The notes under the pieces are model-generated. The model saw only the letters and a list, made by a program, of their open reading frames with translations, did not search any database and was not told where the DNA came from. The translations under genes were made by a program, and so were the position numbers. 64,000 nt of DNA from Escherichia phage EP75, in sequence record MG748547; one strand, 5' to 3'. Position 1 is the stretch's first letter; every line of letters starts with the position of its first letter. This document shows, piece after piece, positions 59,923 to 64,000 of this stretch.

Positions 59923-62900
59923 ATGGCCAACAAACCAACACAGCCTCTTTTCCCTTTGGGTTTAGAAACTTCTGAGTCTTCGAACATAAAAGGCTTCAAC
60001 AACTCCGGCACTATTGAGCATTCCCCTGGTGCCGTAATGACATTCCCTGAAGATACTGAAGTTGCAGGTCTTCCATCTTCTGTGCGTTACAATCCCGATA
60101 GCGATGAATTTGAAGGTTATTACGAAAACGGTGGTTGGTTGTCTTTGGGGGGCGGCGGAATACGCTGGGAAACGCTCCCTCACGCTCCCTCTAGCAATTT
60201 GTTAGAAGGTCGCGGCTATCTCATTAATAACACCACAGGGGCATCTACAGTGGTTCTCCCTTCCCCTACGCGTGTTGGGGATTCCGTTACTATTTGTGAT
60301 GCCTATGGGAAATTCGCGACGTATCCATTGACCGTATCTCCAGCGGGAAATAACCTGTATGGTTCCACTGAAGACATGGCTATAACAACTGATAACGTAT
60401 CAGCAACGTTCACTTGGTCTGGACCTGAACAAGGTTGGGTTATCACATCCGGCGTCGGCCTTGGCCAAGGCCGTGTCTACAGTCGTGAAATCTTTACACA
60501 AATTTTGGCGTCTGAAACAAGTGCTGTCACTCTCAATACTCCACCAACAATCGTGGACGTGTACGCTGACGGAAAACGTCTTGCGGAATCCAAATATTCA
60601 CTAGATGGGAATGTGATCACTTTCAGTCCTTCTTTGCCAGCCAGCACAGAACTTCAGGTGATTGAATATACTCCTATTCAATTGGGTAATGGCGGTGGTT
60701 CTGGTTCTTCTACGATTACCTGGGTCTATAATGGGGGTTCAGCGGTTGGCGGTGAAACCGAAATCACGTTAGACATCGTTGTCGATGATGTTCCAGCCAT
60801 TGATATAAACGGAAGTCGCCAGTATAAAAATCTGGGGTTCACATTCGATTCATTAACCAGTAAAATCACTCTTGCGCAAGAACTGGATGCAGAGGATGAA
60901 GTTGTTGTAATTATCAATGGAACGCCAAACATCTATAATCAAATTGATTATACTTTGCGGGAAGTGGCTCGTGTAACCAATGTTAAAGATACAGAGGTCA
61001 TTTATTTTAGTGTTGGTGCTGTGTTAAGTGGGTATAAAGTTATCTATGATAAAGTAACACAGAGATCATATTTTATTCCAGAGCTACCGACTGGAACCAC
61101 GGCAGTCAGCCTTAGTTCTTCGGCTGTACTTGTGCATTCAGCTGGTAGTGTTGATCTGGGCGCATTAGCTGTATCTCGCGAAGAGTATGTTACCTTGTCT
61201 GGGACATTTGATTCTGGTGCTGTCATCAATACTAAAAATGAATTACTCACCCATACGAACGGTAAGTATCGCTGGGATGGTTCACTTCCTAAAACTGTCG
61301 ATGCTGGATCAACACCTGAAACATCTGGTGGAGTTGGTATTGGTGAATGGGTAAGTGTTGGTGATGCTTCTTTAAGATCTGATTTGAATTCGACAAATGG
61401 AGCTGGAATTGTAAAAACTGGAAATGGGAATACTGTACAAGAAACATTTGATTTTATAAAAAATGTTCAACAAACAAATCTACATCCTTTTGTTCCTTCA
61501 GGCAATTTCGGTTCTGGACTTCCTTTTGATTCTTCGTTACAGGTATTCAAGTATAATGATGAATATTACTCATACAAAGGACCTATTGTCCCAGGTTCGA
61601 CAGTTCCGGCAACCCCATCCGTTGACTCAAACTGGAAAAAAGAACCTATTTCTGATTACATAGAAAATTACGGTGGTGGTGTGCATGTAGCTGATCAGAC
61701 ACCTGCAATTATGGCGGCTATATCTGCTGGTGTTCGCCGTATCATATTTCCTAAAGGTGAACTTAGAATGTCTCAGTGTGATATCCCAGAGTACACACAA
61801 GGCCTCACGTTTGAAGGGCAAGGTGCCAATCAGGCGTACACTGGAACAACAGTGATCAAACCGTTAAATGATAATCAAAATTGTTTATTTAATTCTGGCG
61901 TAAACCAGCACGGACAGGATTCTATAAAATTTAAAAACATTCAATTTGACGGAGAATGGCGTTGCAATCATGCAATATTGCATGAGTCTGGAGCTGGTTG
62001 GTACTATGAAAAACTGACAGGTAAAAATTTCAATACATGGGTTATCTACGATGATCAGGGTTTGACTGTAATGCGTGACGTTTATACCGAAGCAACCAGT
62101 TCAGATCTGACGAAAAGAGCTACAGGTGGGTGTATCCGTATATACTCAGATTCTGTAATGGACACCGTAAACTGTTATGGTGGAAGTGTTCCGCTATTGC
62201 TCGCTGCTGGTGGAAACCGAATTACGAATATCTGGGCAAATGGTGGGTATGATGTTGGCGCAATAATGTTGATGCCAAAAAATGACAGTACTAACCATAT
62301 CAATACCGCTATGAGCAATATCTATATCGGAGAAAGCACAAATACATCTGCAACTGCAATTCCAGTTCTTCACATACAAGGTAACTCAATTCGTCGCGTA
62401 TCTGGTGTTCAGATTTCAAATGCACATTTTGTGCATGCTGACTTGACTCTCAATACAAACATGGTGATGATACGAACCGATAAAGTTGATGGTTTTGTGA
62501 TGTCATCTTTTGATGTTCTTGGACGAGGCGAGTACAGTTCTGCAAGCAGTCGCACATATAATTTCTTAAATGCGACAGATTCTACCGGAATGGCTTTTTC
62601 TGCCGGAAGTGTAAGAGGTATTAATAATAACCCAATAGTTTTATCATCAGGGTCTAGGTTAGCTATTGATGCCGTTGAATTCGATGGGTGGAGTACGAAC
62701 TCTGATTCAGGTATAGAGAATAAAGCTGCTATACGTTCATCTGGTGCTGGAACAAGGTGCTGCATTGGTAGCTCATGTACTTTCAATGCTTCGCAAGCGG
62801 ATGCTTACGCTGTGTATGCAGGGGATGAATTTGCAGTTGATATTTCTATTCTTAATCTTAACTATCCTAGTAGCAATATAATAATTCCTGCAAATACAAA

Positions 62901-62964
62901 TTACAGTTACATGTATAAGCGACCAGGCGGAAAATTAACCTTAGTCAACACATTGACAATTTGA
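59923..62964 (+). CDS. Tailspike protein with branched-adapter N-terminal region and beta-helix-like C-terminus
   Basis: 1013 aa. N-terminus resembles the ViI/CBA120 TSP anchoring region from memory. Contains the roughly 130-aa module shared with the next spike. Confidence 0.7.
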   Translation: MANKPTQPLFPLGLETSESSNIKGFNNSGTIEHSPGAVMTFPEDTEVAGLPSSVRYNPDSDEFEGYYENGGWLSLGGGGIRWETLPHAPSSNLLEGRGYLINNTTGASTVVLPSPTRVGDSVTICDAYGKFATYPLTVSPAGNNLYGSTEDMAITTDNVSATFTWSGPEQGWVITSGVGLGQGRVYSREIFTQILASETSAVTLNTPPTIVDVYADGKRLAESKYSLDGNVITFSPSLPASTELQVIEYTPIQLGNGGGSGSSTITWVYNGGSAVGGETEITLDIVVDDVPAIDINGSRQYKNLGFTFDSLTSKITLAQELDAEDEVVVIINGTPNIYNQIDYTLREVARVTNVKDTEVIYFSVGAVLSGYKVIYDKVTQRSYFIPELPTGTTAVSLSSSAVLVHSAGSVDLGALAVSREEYVTLSGTFDSGAVINTKNELLTHTNGKYRWDGSLPKTVDAGSTPETSGGVGIGEWVSVGDASLRSDLNSTNGAGIVKTGNGNTVQETFDFIKNVQQTNLHPFVPSGNFGSGLPFDSSLQVFKYNDEYYSYKGPIVPGSTVPATPSVDSNWKKEPISDYIENYGGGVHVADQTPAIMAAISAGVRRIIFPKGELRMSQCDIPEYTQGLTFEGQGANQAYTGTTVIKPLNDNQNCLFNSGVNQHGQDSIKFKNIQFDGEWRCNHAILHESGAGWYYEKLTGKNFNTWVIYDDQGLTVMRDVYTEATSSDLTKRATGGCIRIYSDSVMDTVNCYGGSVPLLLAAGGNRITNIWANGGYDVGAIMLMPKNDSTNHINTAMSNIYIGESTNTSATAIPVLHIQGNSIRRVSGVQISNAHFVHADLTLNTNMVMIRTDKVDGFVMSSFDVLGRGEYSSASSRTYNFLNATDSTGMAFSAGSVRGINNNPIVLSSGSRLAIDAVEFDGWSTNSDSGIENKAAIRSSGAGTRCCIGSSCTFNASQADAYAVYAGDEFAVDISILNLNYPSSNIIIPANTNYSYMYKRPGGKLTLVNTLTI
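60994..61385 (+). repeat. Tailspike shared module, copy 1
   Basis: EVIYFSVG...YRWDGSLPKTVDAGSTPETSGGVG...VGDA. 61273-61331 differs from 63416-63474 at a single position. Confidence 0.85.
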
Positions 62965-63003
62965 TAACAAGAACCCATGATTCATAAATTTTATTAGTTC
63001 AGA

Positions 63004-63040
63004 CTAAATACCCCATATTGGTCATCCTTTATGGGGTATT
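63004..63040 (+). promoter_or_regulatory. Late-type cassette CTAAATACCCCA-N16-TGGGGTATT before tailspike 2
   Basis: 9-bp stem 63007-63015/63032-63040. GGGG lies 7 nt before ATG 63044. Confidence 0.55.
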
Positions 63041-63043
63041 ATC

Positions 63044-64000
63044 ATGATTTCTCAATTCAATCAACCACGCGGCTCCACTTCTATAGAAGTTAACAAACAA
63101 TCTATCGCTCGAAATTTCGGTGTCAAAGAAGACGAAGTCATTTATTTCACTGCTGGTATTGATCTCAGTGGATTTAAAGTAATTTATGATGAGTCTACCC
63201 AACGGGCTTATTCTCTTCCTTCAGGTATTGTTTCAGGAACGACTGCGATAAGTCTGAACGAACAAGCCATCCTTACTCATTCTTCTGGCTCTGTTGACCT
63301 TGGGGAATTAGCAGTAAGTCGCGAAGAATATGTGACTTTACCTGGTTCTTTTAATTTCGGCCATACCATTAATGTGAAAAATGAACTTCTTGTTCACGAT
63401 GATAAAAAATATCGATGGGATGGTTCACTTCCTAAAACTGTCGATGCTGGCTCAACACCTGAAACATCTGGTGGCGTTGGTTTAGGTGCATGGTTGAGTG
63501 TTGGTGACGCAGCATTTAGACAGGAAGCCAACAAAAAATTCAAATATTCAGTAAAGTTATCTGATTATTCTACATTACAGGATGCAGCGACAGCAGCCGT
63601 AGATGGATTGCTTATTGATATCAATTACAACTTCACAGATGGTGAGTCTGTAGATTTTGGTGGTAAGACTTTAACCATTAACTGTAAGGCTAAGTTTATT
63701 GGAGATGGGGCTTTAATCTTTAATAATATGGGGCCAGGCTCGGTAATTAATCAACCATTCATGGAGAGCAAGACTACTCCATGGGTCATTTTCCCGTGGG
63801 ATGCTGATGGTAAATGGATTACAGATGCTGCCCTTGTTGCTGCAACGCTGAAGCAATCAAAGATTGAAGGCTATCAACCTGGGGTAAATGACTGGGTTAA
63901 ATTCCCTGGATTAGAGGCATTACTCCCACAGAACGTTAAAGACCAACATATTACAGCCACTCTAGATATTCGCAGTGCCAGCCGAGTAGAAATAAGAAAT
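63044..64000 (+). CDS. Tailspike, P22 gp9-like endorhamnosidase receptor-binding domain (3' end outside window)
   Basis: Own translation from ATG 63044 is open to nt 64000. FKYSVKLSDYSTLQDAATAAVDGLLID..VDFGGKTLTINCKAKFIGDG..TTPWVI..ATLKQSK.EGYQP is near-collinear with the P22 tailspike as I recall it. Confidence 0.85.
   Translation, partial: MISQFNQPRGSTSIEVNKQSIARNFGVKEDEVIYFTAGIDLSGFKVIYDESTQRAYSLPSGIVSGTTAISLNEQAILTHSSGSVDLGELAVSREEYVTLPGSFNFGHTINVKNELLVHDDKKYRWDGSLPKTVDAGSTPETSGGVGLGAWLSVGDAAFRQEANKKFKYSVKLSDYSTLQDAATAAVDGLLIDINYNFTDGESVDFGGKTLTINCKAKFIGDGALIFNNMGPGSVINQPFMESKTTPWVIFPWDADGKWITDAALVAATLKQSKIEGYQPGVNDWVKFPGLEALLPQNVKDQHITATLDIRSASRVEIRN
63134..63525 (+). repeat. Tailspike shared module, copy 2
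   Basis: EVIYFTAG...YRWDGSLPKTVDAGSTPETSGGVG...VGDA. Paralogous to 60994-61385. Confidence 0.85.

What the first reader, a model, noticed from the sequence alone, without database searches (positions are those of the whole stretch)
60994..64000. Modular tailspikes: a duplicated adaptor module with a 59-nt near-identical seam, and a podovirus P22-type receptor-binding domain
The two consecutive spike genes share a roughly 130-aa module (60994-61385 vs 63134-63525). Within it, 61273-61331 and 63416-63474 differ at one base, whereas the flanks are only moderately similar. That pattern points to a gene-conversion or recombination seam. Downstream of the module, the second spike continues as FKYSVKLSDYSTLQDAATAAVDGLLID...KAKFIGDG...ATLKQSK.EGYQP. 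I recognise this as the P22 gp9 endorhamnosidase domain, the situation described for Det7, which implies specificity for Salmonella O-antigen. The ORF track omits this gene because it runs off the window.
Basis: partly seen in the sequence, partly recalled or inferred. Interest (0 to 1): 0.5.

Follow-up and report, generated by a model that had tools for sequence, protein, structure and literature searches.

The report
Kuttervirus tailspike junction with conversion patch
Two neighbouring tailspike genes of a Salmonella Kuttervirus phage share a known adaptor module, and a 59-base stretch copied between them marks an already described hot spot where such phages swap host-recognition domains, so the finding is real but mostly known biology.

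Summary
Window 61273-61331 and 63416-63474 differ at 1 of 59 bases. The surrounding roughly 155-aa module is 62% identical in protein and about 58% in DNA.

The window is a Kuttervirus (Ackermannviridae), 97.7% identical to phage SJ3.
- Spike 1 (59923-62964) is TSP4: baseplate anchor, XD1-3, the D1-D2 head, and an EP75/SJ3-type receptor-binding domain of unknown target.
- Spike 2 (63044 to beyond the window) is TSP3 of the Det7 type. Its head matches CBA120 TSP3. Its receptor-binding domain is 96% identical to the Det7 crystal construct and about 69% to P22 gp9.

The seam is a short gene-conversion footprint. Orthologous TSP4 genes with the same receptor domain differ at 3-15 seam positions from the window. 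The seam is the most divergent 59 nt of the gene against PhiSH19.

The seam lies inside a roughly 100-nt conserved patch (second half of D2 plus the start of the neck). That patch occurs in 502 phage records from several families. It fits the recombination motif published by Pas et al. 2023 in location, size and distribution; the sequence itself could not be compared.

Ends of homology cluster just 3' of the patch, 35-45 nt past the seam, not within it.

Novelty is low.

The parts
59923..62964 (+). TSP4 gene (1013 aa)
   Evidence: ORF listed. It is 97.7% identical in DNA to SJ3 gp203. phrog_34776 matches it end to end.
59923..60936 (+). TSP4 baseplate anchor and XD1-XD3 branching domains (aa 1-338)
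   Evidence: Matches the CBA120 TSP4-N crystal chains 7rej, 7rfo and 7rfv over aa 1-338, E=4e-219.
60925..61389 (+). TSP4 copy of the head module (D1-D2, also called TD1-TD2; aa 335-489)
   Evidence: BLASTP against TSP3 aa 8-163 gives 62% identity. Pfam PF18668 Tail_spike_N matches aa 416-481. PDB heads 5w6h, 4oj5 and 6nw9 match.
61267..61367 (+). TSP4 copy of the conserved junction patch (YRWDGSLPKTVDAGSTPETSGGVGIGEWVSVGDA)
   Evidence: Every cross-family and cross-paralogue DNA match begins and ends here. Among same-domain TSP4 orthologues it is 12-22% divergent, against 2.6-5.1% in the rest of the gene.
61273..61331 (+). TSP4 seam: the converted tract, carrying the sequence type usual in TSP3
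   Evidence: One mismatch to 63416-63474. It has 15 mismatches to the orthologous PhiSH19 TSP4 where 3.1 are expected, P about 1e-6.
61390..62961 (+). TSP4 receptor-binding domain, EP75/SJ3 type, receptor unknown
   Evidence: tblastn finds it in 24 Kuttervirus records at 94.7-98.5% and in one siphovirus at 52%. No PDB or Pfam match beyond aa 532. The >95%-identical EP75 TSP4 showed no activity on any strain tested (PMC8217332).
62965..63043 (+). Intergenic region with the promoter-like ACTAAATACCCC (63003-63014) and an 11-bp stem-loop (63007-63040) just before the TSP3 start codon
   Evidence: RNA fold -24 kcal/mol, z=-4.0. The same motif-plus-stem layout lies upstream of TSP4, and the same motif and 5' arm upstream of SPTD1 TSP2, where the extract stops inside the loop. 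SPTD1 is annotated with a 'Kuttervirus late gene promoter' at the equivalent place. The 64 nt at 62981-63044 recur upstream of TSP2 in relatives.
63044..64000 (+). TSP3 gene, the first 319 of about 708 codons; it runs off the window
   Evidence: Translation. SJ3 gp202, 708 aa, is the full-length orthologue.
63044..63508 (+). TSP3 head module (D1-D2, aa 1-155)
   Evidence: aa 1-167 match the CBA120 TSP3 chains 6nw9 and 5w6f, E=1.8e-96. PF18668 matches aa 90-155. Domain limits D1 13-96, D2 97-154 and neck 155-168 come from PMC6517402.
63410..63510 (+). TSP3 copy of the conserved junction patch
   Evidence: Matches in 502 phage records mostly start at 63410 and end at 63516-63520. Alignments.
63416..63474 (+). 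TSP3 seam, the likely donor type
   Evidence: The identical 59-mer is in TSP3 of SJ3, L002, L003, L010, PhiSH19, Matapan, ST-W77, BRM13313, KE31 and Se_EM4.
63509..64000 (+). Neck helix and first part of the Det7/P22-type endorhamnosidase beta-helix domain (aa 156-319)
   Evidence: Against 2v5i, 163 of 169 residues are identical. P22 gp9 is about 69% identical over 160 aligned residues. PF09251 matches aa 161-318. Skatevirus siphophage spikes match 63410-64000 at 96% DNA identity overall and are almost identical from about 63500.

Best explanation
The region is the start of the four-gene tailspike cluster of a Kuttervirus, in the order TSP4, TSP3, then TSP2 and TSP1 beyond the window.

According to published work on CBA120, TSP4 anchors the branched spike complex to the baseplate. 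TSP3 docks onto TSP2 through its D1-D2 head. Each spike ends in its own receptor-binding and receptor-degrading beta-helix.

TSP3 here is the Det7 type. It has a myovirus head fused at the neck helix to a P22-like endorhamnosidase domain, so it should bind and cut Salmonella O-antigen (serogroup O:4, probably also O:9).

The heads of TSP4 and TSP3 are old paralogues. Their last roughly 100 nt (second half of D2 plus the first neck residues) form a patch that is conserved in spikes of many phage families. The patch supplies the short homology where receptor-binding domains are exchanged by homologous recombination, both between paralogues and between co-infecting phages.

The 59-nt near-identity in this window is the footprint of one or more short-patch gene conversions. 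They overwrote the TSP4 seam with the variant usual in TSP3.

Shown here: gene identities, extent of the patch, the conflict between orthologues and paralogues, the clustering of homology ends, and the crossover sites in two natural fusions.

Inferred: the direction TSP3 to TSP4, whether the donor was in the same genome or in a co-infecting phage, and the prediction that the identity now favours a TSP4::TSP3 deletion fusion in this lineage.
For: **Identity of the genes.** SJ3 is 97.7% identical over 59900-64000, and 314 phage records match, mostly Salmonella Kuttervirus. TSP4-N matches 7rej at E=4e-219. The TSP3 head matches 6nw9 at E=2e-96, Det7 2v5i at E=4e-106 and P22 chains at E about 3e-68. 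Pfam finds PF18668 plus PF09251. In the full-length SJ3 orthologue the P22 catalytic Glu359, Asp392 and Asp395 align with identical residues (RAGESG and WDGFDLG motifs).

**Conversion.**
- Same-codon use is 17/19 in the seam and 33/75 elsewhere in the module. Permutation gives P<5e-5.
- Against PhiSH19 TSP4 (same receptor domain, 5.2% divergent) the seam has 15 mismatches where 3.1 are expected. The most divergent 59-nt window of the 3-kb gene overlaps the seam.
- Across ten genomes with this TSP4 type, mismatches between the TSP4 and TSP3 seams are: window 1, SJ3 4; ST-W77, BRM13313 and SenALZ1 8; PhiSH19, KE31 and Se_EM4 15; SPTD1 and moki 20. The patch is 12-22% divergent against 2.6-5.1% outside it.
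- TSP3 orthologues with the same receptor domain (PM10, SenM-2) are almost identical to the window on both sides of the patch. Inside the patch they differ at 18-20 positions.

**Junction role.**
- In TSP4, 78 of 127 orthologue pairs with a shared N-terminus and different receptor domains have their change-point 98-111 nt after the patch start. In TSP3 the figure is 39 of 48 pairs.
- The natural TSP4::TSP3 fusions in SeF6a and L009 have crossovers at -34..-24 and +81..+97 relative to the patch start.
- The patch occurs in 502 records, including K1F gp17, Schitoviridae, roughly 150-kb myoviruses and roughly 45-kb siphoviruses.
- Pas et al. [quoted passage not shown]
Against: - The change-point pairs are not independent, because many genomes are close relatives.
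- Homology must end at the module border wherever the crossover actually happened, so the clustering does not locate crossovers.
- The two mapped crossovers lie outside the seam.
- The single seam mismatch (A at 61308) is the state seen in related TSP4 genes. The tract may therefore be two shorter patches, or the result of stepwise events.
- Donor and direction are inferred only from how often each variant occurs.
- The catalytic part of TSP3 lies outside the window.
- No experiment has tested this phage.
Confidence: 0.8

Rival explanations
1. There was no recombination. The 59-nt identity reflects strong purifying selection on a conserved peptide (WDGSLPKTVDAGSTPETSGG) together with shared codon preference.
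For: The peptide is highly conserved across families. The patch is the best-conserved DNA segment across families.
Against: Other genomes encode the same or nearly the same peptide with many synonymous differences. Orthologous TSP4 genes differ at 3-15 of the 59 positions from the window. Same-codon use is 89% in the seam and 44% in the rest of the module. The seam is the most divergent part of the gene against PhiSH19.
Confidence: 0.05
2. The seam is a functional nucleic-acid element, such as an RNA structure, an internal regulatory site or the crossover site of a site-specific recombinase, and its sequence is kept identical by selection.
For: Two direct copies with sharp borders. Tail-fibre genes of some phages (Mu, P1) do contain recombinase crossover sites (my own knowledge).
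Against: Predicted RNA folding of both patches is no better than shuffled sequence (z=-0.9 and +0.4). The sequence varies freely among relatives. The copies are direct repeats, so a recombinase would delete rather than invert the segment between them. I did not look for a recombinase gene, and none is annotated in the related loci I fetched.
Confidence: 0.04
3. The identity is an assembly or consensus artefact. Reads or graph paths from the TSP3 copy were merged into the TSP4 copy.
For: The two copies share exact runs of 35 and 23 nt, which are repeat nodes for short k-mers. The origin and assembly method of the window are unknown.
Against: Both genes are intact, in frame and collinear with SJ3. 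The independently sequenced SJ3 shows an intermediate state with 4 mismatches. Other isolates show further mosaic variants of the same patch, so mosaicism here is a biological pattern.
Confidence: 0.03
4. The seam was imported from another phage during co-infection, from any spike carrying this patch variant, and was not copied from the TSP3 gene of the same genome.
For: Patch variants are shared between genomes and even between families. The window's TSP4 keeps A at 61308 where its own TSP3 has C. [quoted passage not shown]
Against: The resident TSP3, 2.1 kb away, carries the matching variant and is always available as a template. The series ST-W77 (8 mismatches), SJ3 (4), window (1) moves step by step towards the resident TSP3 sequence. 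The data cannot separate the two routes.
Confidence: 0.3

Closest known systems
Det7 tailspike (gp207, PDB 2v5i; Walter et al. 2008) and Kuttervirus subtype TSP3-2 (Sørensen et al. 2021, PMC8432352)
   Same: The receptor-binding domain matches at 163 of 169 visible residues. The head is the same as in CBA120 TSP3. The gene sits in the same place in the cluster. SJ3, the nearest relative, is listed in subtype TSP3-2, with predicted receptor S. Typhimurium O:4.
   Different: Only the first 319 of about 708 residues are in the window. The variant of the junction patch differs from that of the Det7-species phage SenM-2 at 18 positions.
P22 gp9 tailspike endorhamnosidase (Pfam PF09251)
   Same: The beta-helix domain is homologous from P22 residue about 112 onwards, with about 69% identity over the first 160 aligned residues. 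The catalytic Glu/Asp/Asp are conserved in the SJ3 orthologue.
   Different: There is no P22 head-binding domain. The N-terminus is the Kuttervirus/G7C-type D1-D2 head (PF18668), which docks on another spike and not on a podovirus tail.
CBA120 TSP4 and the branched TSP1-4 complex (Plattner et al. 2019; Chao et al. 2022, PMC8825819)
   Same: Anchor, XD1-3 and the D1-D2 head are nearly identical (7rej E=4e-219; 5w6h covers aa 344-532). The gene order is the same.
   Different: The receptor-binding domain is unrelated in sequence to CBA120's O78-specific domain. It is the EP75/SJ3 type, for which no receptor is known.
Conserved DNA 'motif one/two' (44/95 nt) at the end of the RBP anchor domain (Pas et al. 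2023, PMC10408124)
   Same: Same location (end of the anchor, just before the receptor domain) and similar length. Same distribution: Kuttervirus spikes except CBA120 TSP2, plus Kayfuna-, Gamaleya-, Justusliebig-type and siphophage spikes. Same proposed role as a recombination hot spot.
   Different: The published sequence is held only as an image, so base-for-base identity could not be checked. That paper does not report conversion between paralogues, or that the motif is the most mosaic part of otherwise identical genes.
GTTAVSL motif at the end of TD1, proposed as a recombination site (Sørensen et al. 2021)
   Same: Same idea: a conserved site in the head of TSP1, TSP3 and TSP4 lets receptor domains move between spikes. 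The motif is present here as GTTAVSL in TSP4 and GTTAISL in TSP3.
   Different: It lies about 160 nt upstream of the patch. In my sample few change-points fall there. Most fall at the D2/neck border.
Conserved motifs in T-even distal tail-fibre genes that mediate adhesin swapping (Tétart et al. 1998, as cited)
   Same: Short conserved sequence blocks inside host-range genes act as recombination linkers and produce mosaic adhesins.
   Different: Different proteins (gp37/gp38 fibres against beta-helix spikes) and different motifs. This is an analogy only.

Membership tests
P22 gp9-type tailspike receptor-binding domain (PF09251) | Significant sequence homology to the P22 gp9 beta-helix domain | tested here: met
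   P22 chains score 233 bits, E about 3e-68, with query aa 157-317 aligned to P22 residues 112-272. PF09251 scores E=5.4e-79 against a cutoff of 25 bits.
P22 gp9-type tailspike receptor-binding domain (PF09251) | Catalytic Glu359, Asp392 and Asp395 (P22 numbering, from my knowledge of Steinbacher et al.) | tested here: inconclusive
   These residues lie beyond the end of the window. In the full-length SJ3 orthologue they align with identical residues.
P22 gp9 (full-length orthologue) | N-terminal P22 head-binding domain that attaches to the podovirus tail | tested here: not met
   Pfam finds only PF18668 at the N-terminus. aa 1-167 match the CBA120 TSP3 head. P22 homology begins only at aa 156-160.
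P22 gp9-type tailspike receptor-binding domain (PF09251) | Endorhamnosidase activity on Salmonella O-antigen | not testable with these tools
   Shown experimentally for Det7 and for the Det7-like EP75 TSP3 (PMC8432352, PMC8217332). Not shown for this phage.
Kuttervirus TSP3, Det7 subtype (TSP3-2) | D1-D2 head of the TSP3 type followed by the Det7 receptor domain, with the gene directly after TSP4 | tested here: met
   Head matches 6nw9 at E=1.8e-96. Receptor domain matches 2v5i at 163/169. Gene order as in SJ3. Only 319 aa are visible.
Kuttervirus TSP4 | Anchor domain plus XD1-XD3 (about 335 aa) followed by the D1-D2 head and a C-terminal receptor domain | tested here: met
   7rej, 7rfo and 7rfv match aa 1-338. 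5w6h matches aa 344-532. PF18668 matches aa 416-481.
Anchor-end recombination motif one/two of Pas et al. 2023 | [quoted passage not shown] | tested here: met
   The patch 61267-61367 / 63410-63510 ends at the D2/neck border.
Anchor-end recombination motif one/two of Pas et al. 2023 | Present across lytic genera (Kutter-, Kayfuna-, Gamaleya-, Justusliebig-, Kaguna-type) and absent from CBA120 TSP2 | tested here: met
   502 records, including K1F gp17, phi G17, roughly 150-kb myoviruses and roughly 45-kb siphoviruses. No patch copy in CBA120 TSP2.
Anchor-end recombination motif one/two of Pas et al. 2023 | Same nucleotide sequence as the published logo | not testable with these tools
   The alignments and logos are held only as images.
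Gene-conversion tract between paralogues | Excess identity at synonymous sites compared with the flanks | tested here: met
   17/19 against 33/75, Fisher P=2.8e-4. Permutation P<5e-5.
Gene-conversion tract between paralogues | Local phylogenetic conflict: the tract is closer to the paralogue than to orthologues | tested here: met
   1 mismatch to the window's own TSP3 against 15 to PhiSH19 TSP4 (3.1 expected). Ten-genome table.

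The most novel reading that the evidence does not exclude
The roughly 100-nt D2/neck patch may be more than a passively conserved linker. It may be a segment that turns over by frequent short-patch conversion among TSP1, TSP3, TSP4 and foreign spikes. That would explain why it is the DNA best conserved across families and also the most mosaic stretch within otherwise identical genes (4-6 times the flanking divergence). 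If so, the length of exact identity between the TSP4 and TSP3 patches in a given phage (59 nt here, far less in PhiSH19) should set how fast that lineage produces TSP4::TSP3 fusions and three-spike phages such as SeF6a and L009.
Probability: 0.35. Interest if true: 0.45.

Novelty: already known. Interest (0 to 1): 0.27.

Why it matters
Kuttervirus phages are used for Salmonella and E. coli biocontrol and detection, and their host range is set by these four spikes. Engineers cut and join spikes at the natural junction, for example at TSP3 Ala157 and TSP4 aa 479/480 in PMC9965104. Those positions are at or next to the 3' end of the patch described here.

The small addition from this window is practical. 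This phage carries an unusually long exact repeat between TSP4 and TSP3. That repeat may make the cluster less stable, with a risk of deletion that fuses the TSP4 head to the Det7-type domain.

The result also shows that mosaic variation in the patch should not be read as a phylogenetic signal. None of this changes current understanding of how these spikes work.

Tried and rejected
- **RNA structure in the patch:** not significant (z=-0.9 and +0.4). Rejected as a cause of the conservation.
- **Promoter and terminator scan of 59800-64000:** no more hits than in shuffled sequence.
- **Codon bias or purifying selection alone:** rejected because orthologues spell the same peptide differently.
- **Finding the window's own contig in IMG/VR:** L002 has a 100% identical TSP3 head protein, but its DNA differs and it has a different TSP4. 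The source was not identified.
- **Reading the published motif sequence of Pas et al.:** only images are held.
- **Search for PF18668 / Tail_spike_N in papers:** nothing on junction mechanics.
- **GTTAVSL as the main breakpoint:** few change-points fall there in my sample.
- **TSP4 receptor-domain function:** no PDB or Pfam match. The literature reports no activity for the EP75 orthologue. I ran no further search on it, because it does not bear on the finding.
- **Two paper-reading runs** (66, 67) failed on term length and were repeated.

Full report
**1. The observation**

Window 61273-61331 and 63416-63474 are identical except for one base (A/C at 61308/63451). No other copy with up to 3 mismatches exists in the window, and shuffled sequence gave none.

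The two ORFs are 59923-62964 (1013 aa) and an ORF that starts at 63044 and runs off the window (319 aa visible). That is why the ORF list omits the second one.

BLASTP aligns aa 335-489 of the first with aa 8-163 of the second at 62% identity, E=3e-60, with one 1-codon gap.

Codon-aligned DNA identity is 97% in the seam and 58% in the rest of the module. Among amino-acid-identical degenerate codons, 17 of 19 are the same codon in the seam against 33 of 75 elsewhere (Fisher P=2.8e-4). No codon-column permutation out of 20,000 produced a 59-nt run with at most one mismatch. The repeat finder reports the wider repeat as 61264-61377 / 63407-63520, 114 nt at 88%.

**2. What the genes are**

The region is 97.7% identical to Salmonella phage SJ3. 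It matches 314 phage records, nearly all Kuttervirus of the Ackermannviridae.

*Spike 1 is TSP4.*
- aa 1-338 match the crystal chains of the CBA120 TSP4 anchor and XD1-3 domains (7rej, E=4e-219).
- aa 344-532 match the TSP4 head (5w6h).
- Its C-terminal 524 aa have no PDB or Pfam match.
- That domain occurs in 24 Kuttervirus records at 94.7-98.5% identity and in one siphovirus at 52%.
- The >95%-identical EP75 TSP4 showed no activity on any strain tested (PMC8217332).

*Spike 2 is TSP3 of the Det7 type.*
- aa 1-167 match the CBA120 TSP3 head (6nw9, E=1.8e-96).
- aa 151-319 match the Det7 tailspike (2v5i) at 163 of 169 residues.
- P22 gp9 chains match from P22 residue about 112 onwards, at 233 bits and about 69% identity.
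- Pfam gives PF18668 (Tail_spike_N, aa 90-155) and PF09251 (PhageP22-tail, aa 161-318).
- In the full-length SJ3 orthologue, the residues that align with P22 Glu359, Asp392 and Asp395 are identical. That part lies outside the window.
- Published work places SJ3 in subtype TSP3-2 (Det7, S. Typhimurium O:4; PMC8432352). It also shows that the Det7-like EP75 TSP3 is active on Salmonella O4, O7 and O9.

**3. Where the seam sits**

Below, positions are counted from the Y codon of YRWDG, which is window 61267 in TSP4 and 63410 in TSP3. The seam is +6 to +64.

All DNA matches between paralogues and between families share a block from 0 to about +100. It encodes YRWDGSLPKTVDAGSTPETSGGVGLGAWLSVGDA.

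In the CBA120 TSP3 structure, D1 is residues 13-96, D2 is 97-154, the neck helix is 155-168, and the beta-helix starts at 169 (PMC6517402). The patch is therefore the second half of D2 plus the first neck residues.

**4. Is the seam a recombination footprint?**

Yes, on three counts.

- *Orthologues disagree with paralogues.* PhiSH19 TSP4 has the same receptor domain and is 5.2% divergent overall. It differs from the window at 15 of the 59 seam positions where 3.1 are expected (P about 1e-6). The most divergent 59-nt window of the whole 3-kb gene overlaps the seam.

- *A graded series across ten genomes with this TSP4 type.* The patch is 12-22% divergent from the window, against 2.6-5.1% in the rest of the gene. 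Mismatches between the TSP4 seam and the TSP3 seam of the same genome are:

| Genome | Mismatches |
|---|---|
| window | 1 |
| SJ3 | 4 |
| ST-W77, BRM13313, SenALZ1 | 8 |
| PhiSH19, KE31, Se_EM4 | 15 |
| SPTD1, moki | 20 |

- *Variant frequency points to TSP3 as donor.* The window's seam variant is the commonest one in TSP3 genes: window, SJ3, L002, L003, L010, PhiSH19, Matapan, ST-W77, BRM13313, KE31 and Se_EM4. Among TSP4 genes it is found only here. This makes TSP3 the likely donor and TSP4 the recipient.

The tract is bounded by a TSP4-type C at +5 and by an A at +65 where TSP3 has C.

The same mosaic behaviour appears in TSP3. PM10 and SenM-2 carry the same Det7-type domain and are almost identical to the window on both sides. 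Inside the patch they differ at 18-20 positions, and the PM10 variant equals the CBA120 TSP3 variant.

**5. Do breakpoints cluster at the seam?**

Not in it, but just after it.

I examined orthologue pairs whose N-termini are more than 85% identical and whose downstream parts are less than 55% identical. The two-segment change-point falls at +98 to +111 in 78 of 127 TSP4 pairs, and at +101 to +111 in 39 of 48 TSP3 pairs. Minor groups lie at +50 to +72 and near -85. In window coordinates the main cluster is 61365-61378 and 63508-63521, which is the D2/neck border.

Three further points:
- The pairs are not independent.
- Homology must end at the module border wherever the crossover occurred.
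- A second junction exists at 60971-61003, the XD3/D1 border, for a TSP4 class with a different head (L002, L010, Matapan, GEC_N6, ECML-4).

Two natural fusion genes allowed direct mapping of crossovers.
- SeF6a carries a TSP4 N-terminus joined to the Det7-type domain and has only three spike genes. It switches from TSP4-type to TSP3-type sequence between -34 and -24, within a shared AAAAATGAA.
- L009 carries a TSP4 N-terminus joined to the PhiSH19-type TSP3 domain and also has three spikes. It switches between +81 and +97, within TGGTTGAGTGTTGGTGA.

Both crossovers flank the seam. In those lineages the two seams differ at about ten positions, so the longest identities lie elsewhere.

**6. Cross-family reach**

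Skatevirus-like siphophages such as Seszw_1 are unrelated in DNA upstream of position 0 and share the patch at about 84%. From about +90 to the end of the window they are almost identical to the window (96% over 63410-64000). The schitovirus FSL SP-076 matches from 63092. Pectobacterium phage CB1 shares only +6 to +104.

A sensitive search with 63404-63520 finds 502 records, including K1F gp17, phi G17, roughly 150-kb myoviruses and T7-like Salmonella phages. Most of those outside Kuttervirus start at 63410 and end at 63516-63520.

**7. What was already known**

- Kutter et al. 2011 noted that the N-terminal 163 aa of CBA120 orf210 and orf212 recur inside orf213 and then 'diverge markedly'. 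They also noted similarity to K1F (PMC3184105).
- Walter et al. 2008 described Det7 as a podoviral spike in a myovirus (cited).
- Sørensen et al. 2021 showed receptor domains shared between TSP1/TSP3 and TSP4. They proposed GTTAVSL at the end of TD1 as a recombination site.
- Sørensen et al. 2024 observed recombination between tsp genes experimentally.
- Engineered chimeras are joined at TSP3 Ala157 and TSP4 479/480, which are at or next to the 3' end of the patch (PMC9965104).
- Pas et al. [quoted passage not shown] It is found in all Kuttervirus spikes except CBA120 TSP2 and in five other genera, and they proposed it as a recombination hot spot. The patch described here fits that description in place, size and distribution. 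The published sequence is held only as an image, so I could not compare bases.

**8. Alternatives**

- Purifying selection plus codon bias fails the orthologue test.
- An RNA or regulatory element is unlikely. The patches fold no better than shuffles, and the sequence varies among relatives.
- An assembly artefact is unlikely. Both genes are intact and collinear with SJ3, and SJ3 shows an intermediate state. Only resequencing can exclude it.
- Whether the donor was the resident TSP3 or a co-infecting phage cannot be decided.

**9. Verdict**

The P22/Det7 identification and the conversion reading are supported. The claim that breakpoints cluster at the seam needs correcting: they cluster at the 3' edge of the patch that contains it.

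The biology is already published. What is new is the lineage-specific 59-nt conversion and the quantitative picture of the patch as a mosaic hot spot. Interest is low to moderate.

Noticed in passing
window 59879-59922 and 62965-63043: Each spike gene is preceded by ACTAAATACCCC, a loop, then GGGGTATTA three or four bases before the ATG. The CCCC and GGGG form an 11-bp stem (63007-63040, z=-4.0). SPTD1 is annotated with a 'Kuttervirus late gene promoter' at the equivalent place. The hairpin would cover the bases just upstream of the start codon.
   Followed up: partly
L029 (SeF6a) 10024-13128; L009 TSP4 around 7933: Both phages have only three spike genes. Their TSP4 head is fused to a TSP3-type receptor domain, which is what unequal recombination between the paralogous heads would produce. 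The crossovers map to -34..-24 and +81..+97 relative to the patch start.
   Followed up: yes
L001 (SJ3) 17201-17758 and 17821-19737: In SJ3, TSP1 is annotated as two ORFs. One is a 185-aa protein made only of the D1-D2 head. The other is a separate 638-aa protein. This is either a true split or a frameshift.
   Followed up: no
L039 (ST-W77) 3245-3451 and 3532 onwards: ST-W77 TSP3 is annotated as two CDS. Its patch lies 1 nt out of register with the other genomes, which suggests a frameshift or a sequencing error.
   Followed up: no
L028 16401, L005 12224, L029 13892: The Det7-type TSP2 genes carry their own copy of the junction patch (YRWDGAFPKTVAAGSSPASTGGVGNGSWVSVGD). No copy was detected in CBA120-type TSP2.
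   Followed up: partly
window 60971-61003; L002, L010, L033, L034, L035: A second class of TSP4 genes shares only the anchor and XD domains with the window. It diverges at the XD3/D1 border and has no recognisable patch. This gives a second module junction.
   Followed up: partly
window about 63610-63710: TSP3 of the common PhiSH19/S117 type is identical to the window's Det7-type TSP3 up to about 200 nt after the patch start. It then diverges progressively. This suggests a further junction inside the N-terminal cap of the P22-like domain.
   Followed up: partly
window 58686-59876: The conserved 396-aa structural protein just upstream (phrog_3838, function unknown) contains three tandem copies, each about 24 aa, of a peptide resembling VxxSTYNTKMxSLDxSI.
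   Followed up: no
window 51918-52733: tRNA-Tyr, tRNA-Asn and tRNA-Met genes lie on the minus strand. They are followed by about 2.4 kb (52.7-55.1 kb) that I did not examine; in the part scanned (54.0-55.1 kb) only two short ORFs were listed.
   Followed up: no
window 61390-62961: The orphan TSP4 receptor domain has a 52%-identical homologue in the 43.8-kb siphovirus Escherichia phage vB_EcoS_FP. It also has a weak match to a Vibrio phage 'hemagglutinin'. These could be leads to its unknown receptor.
   Followed up: no
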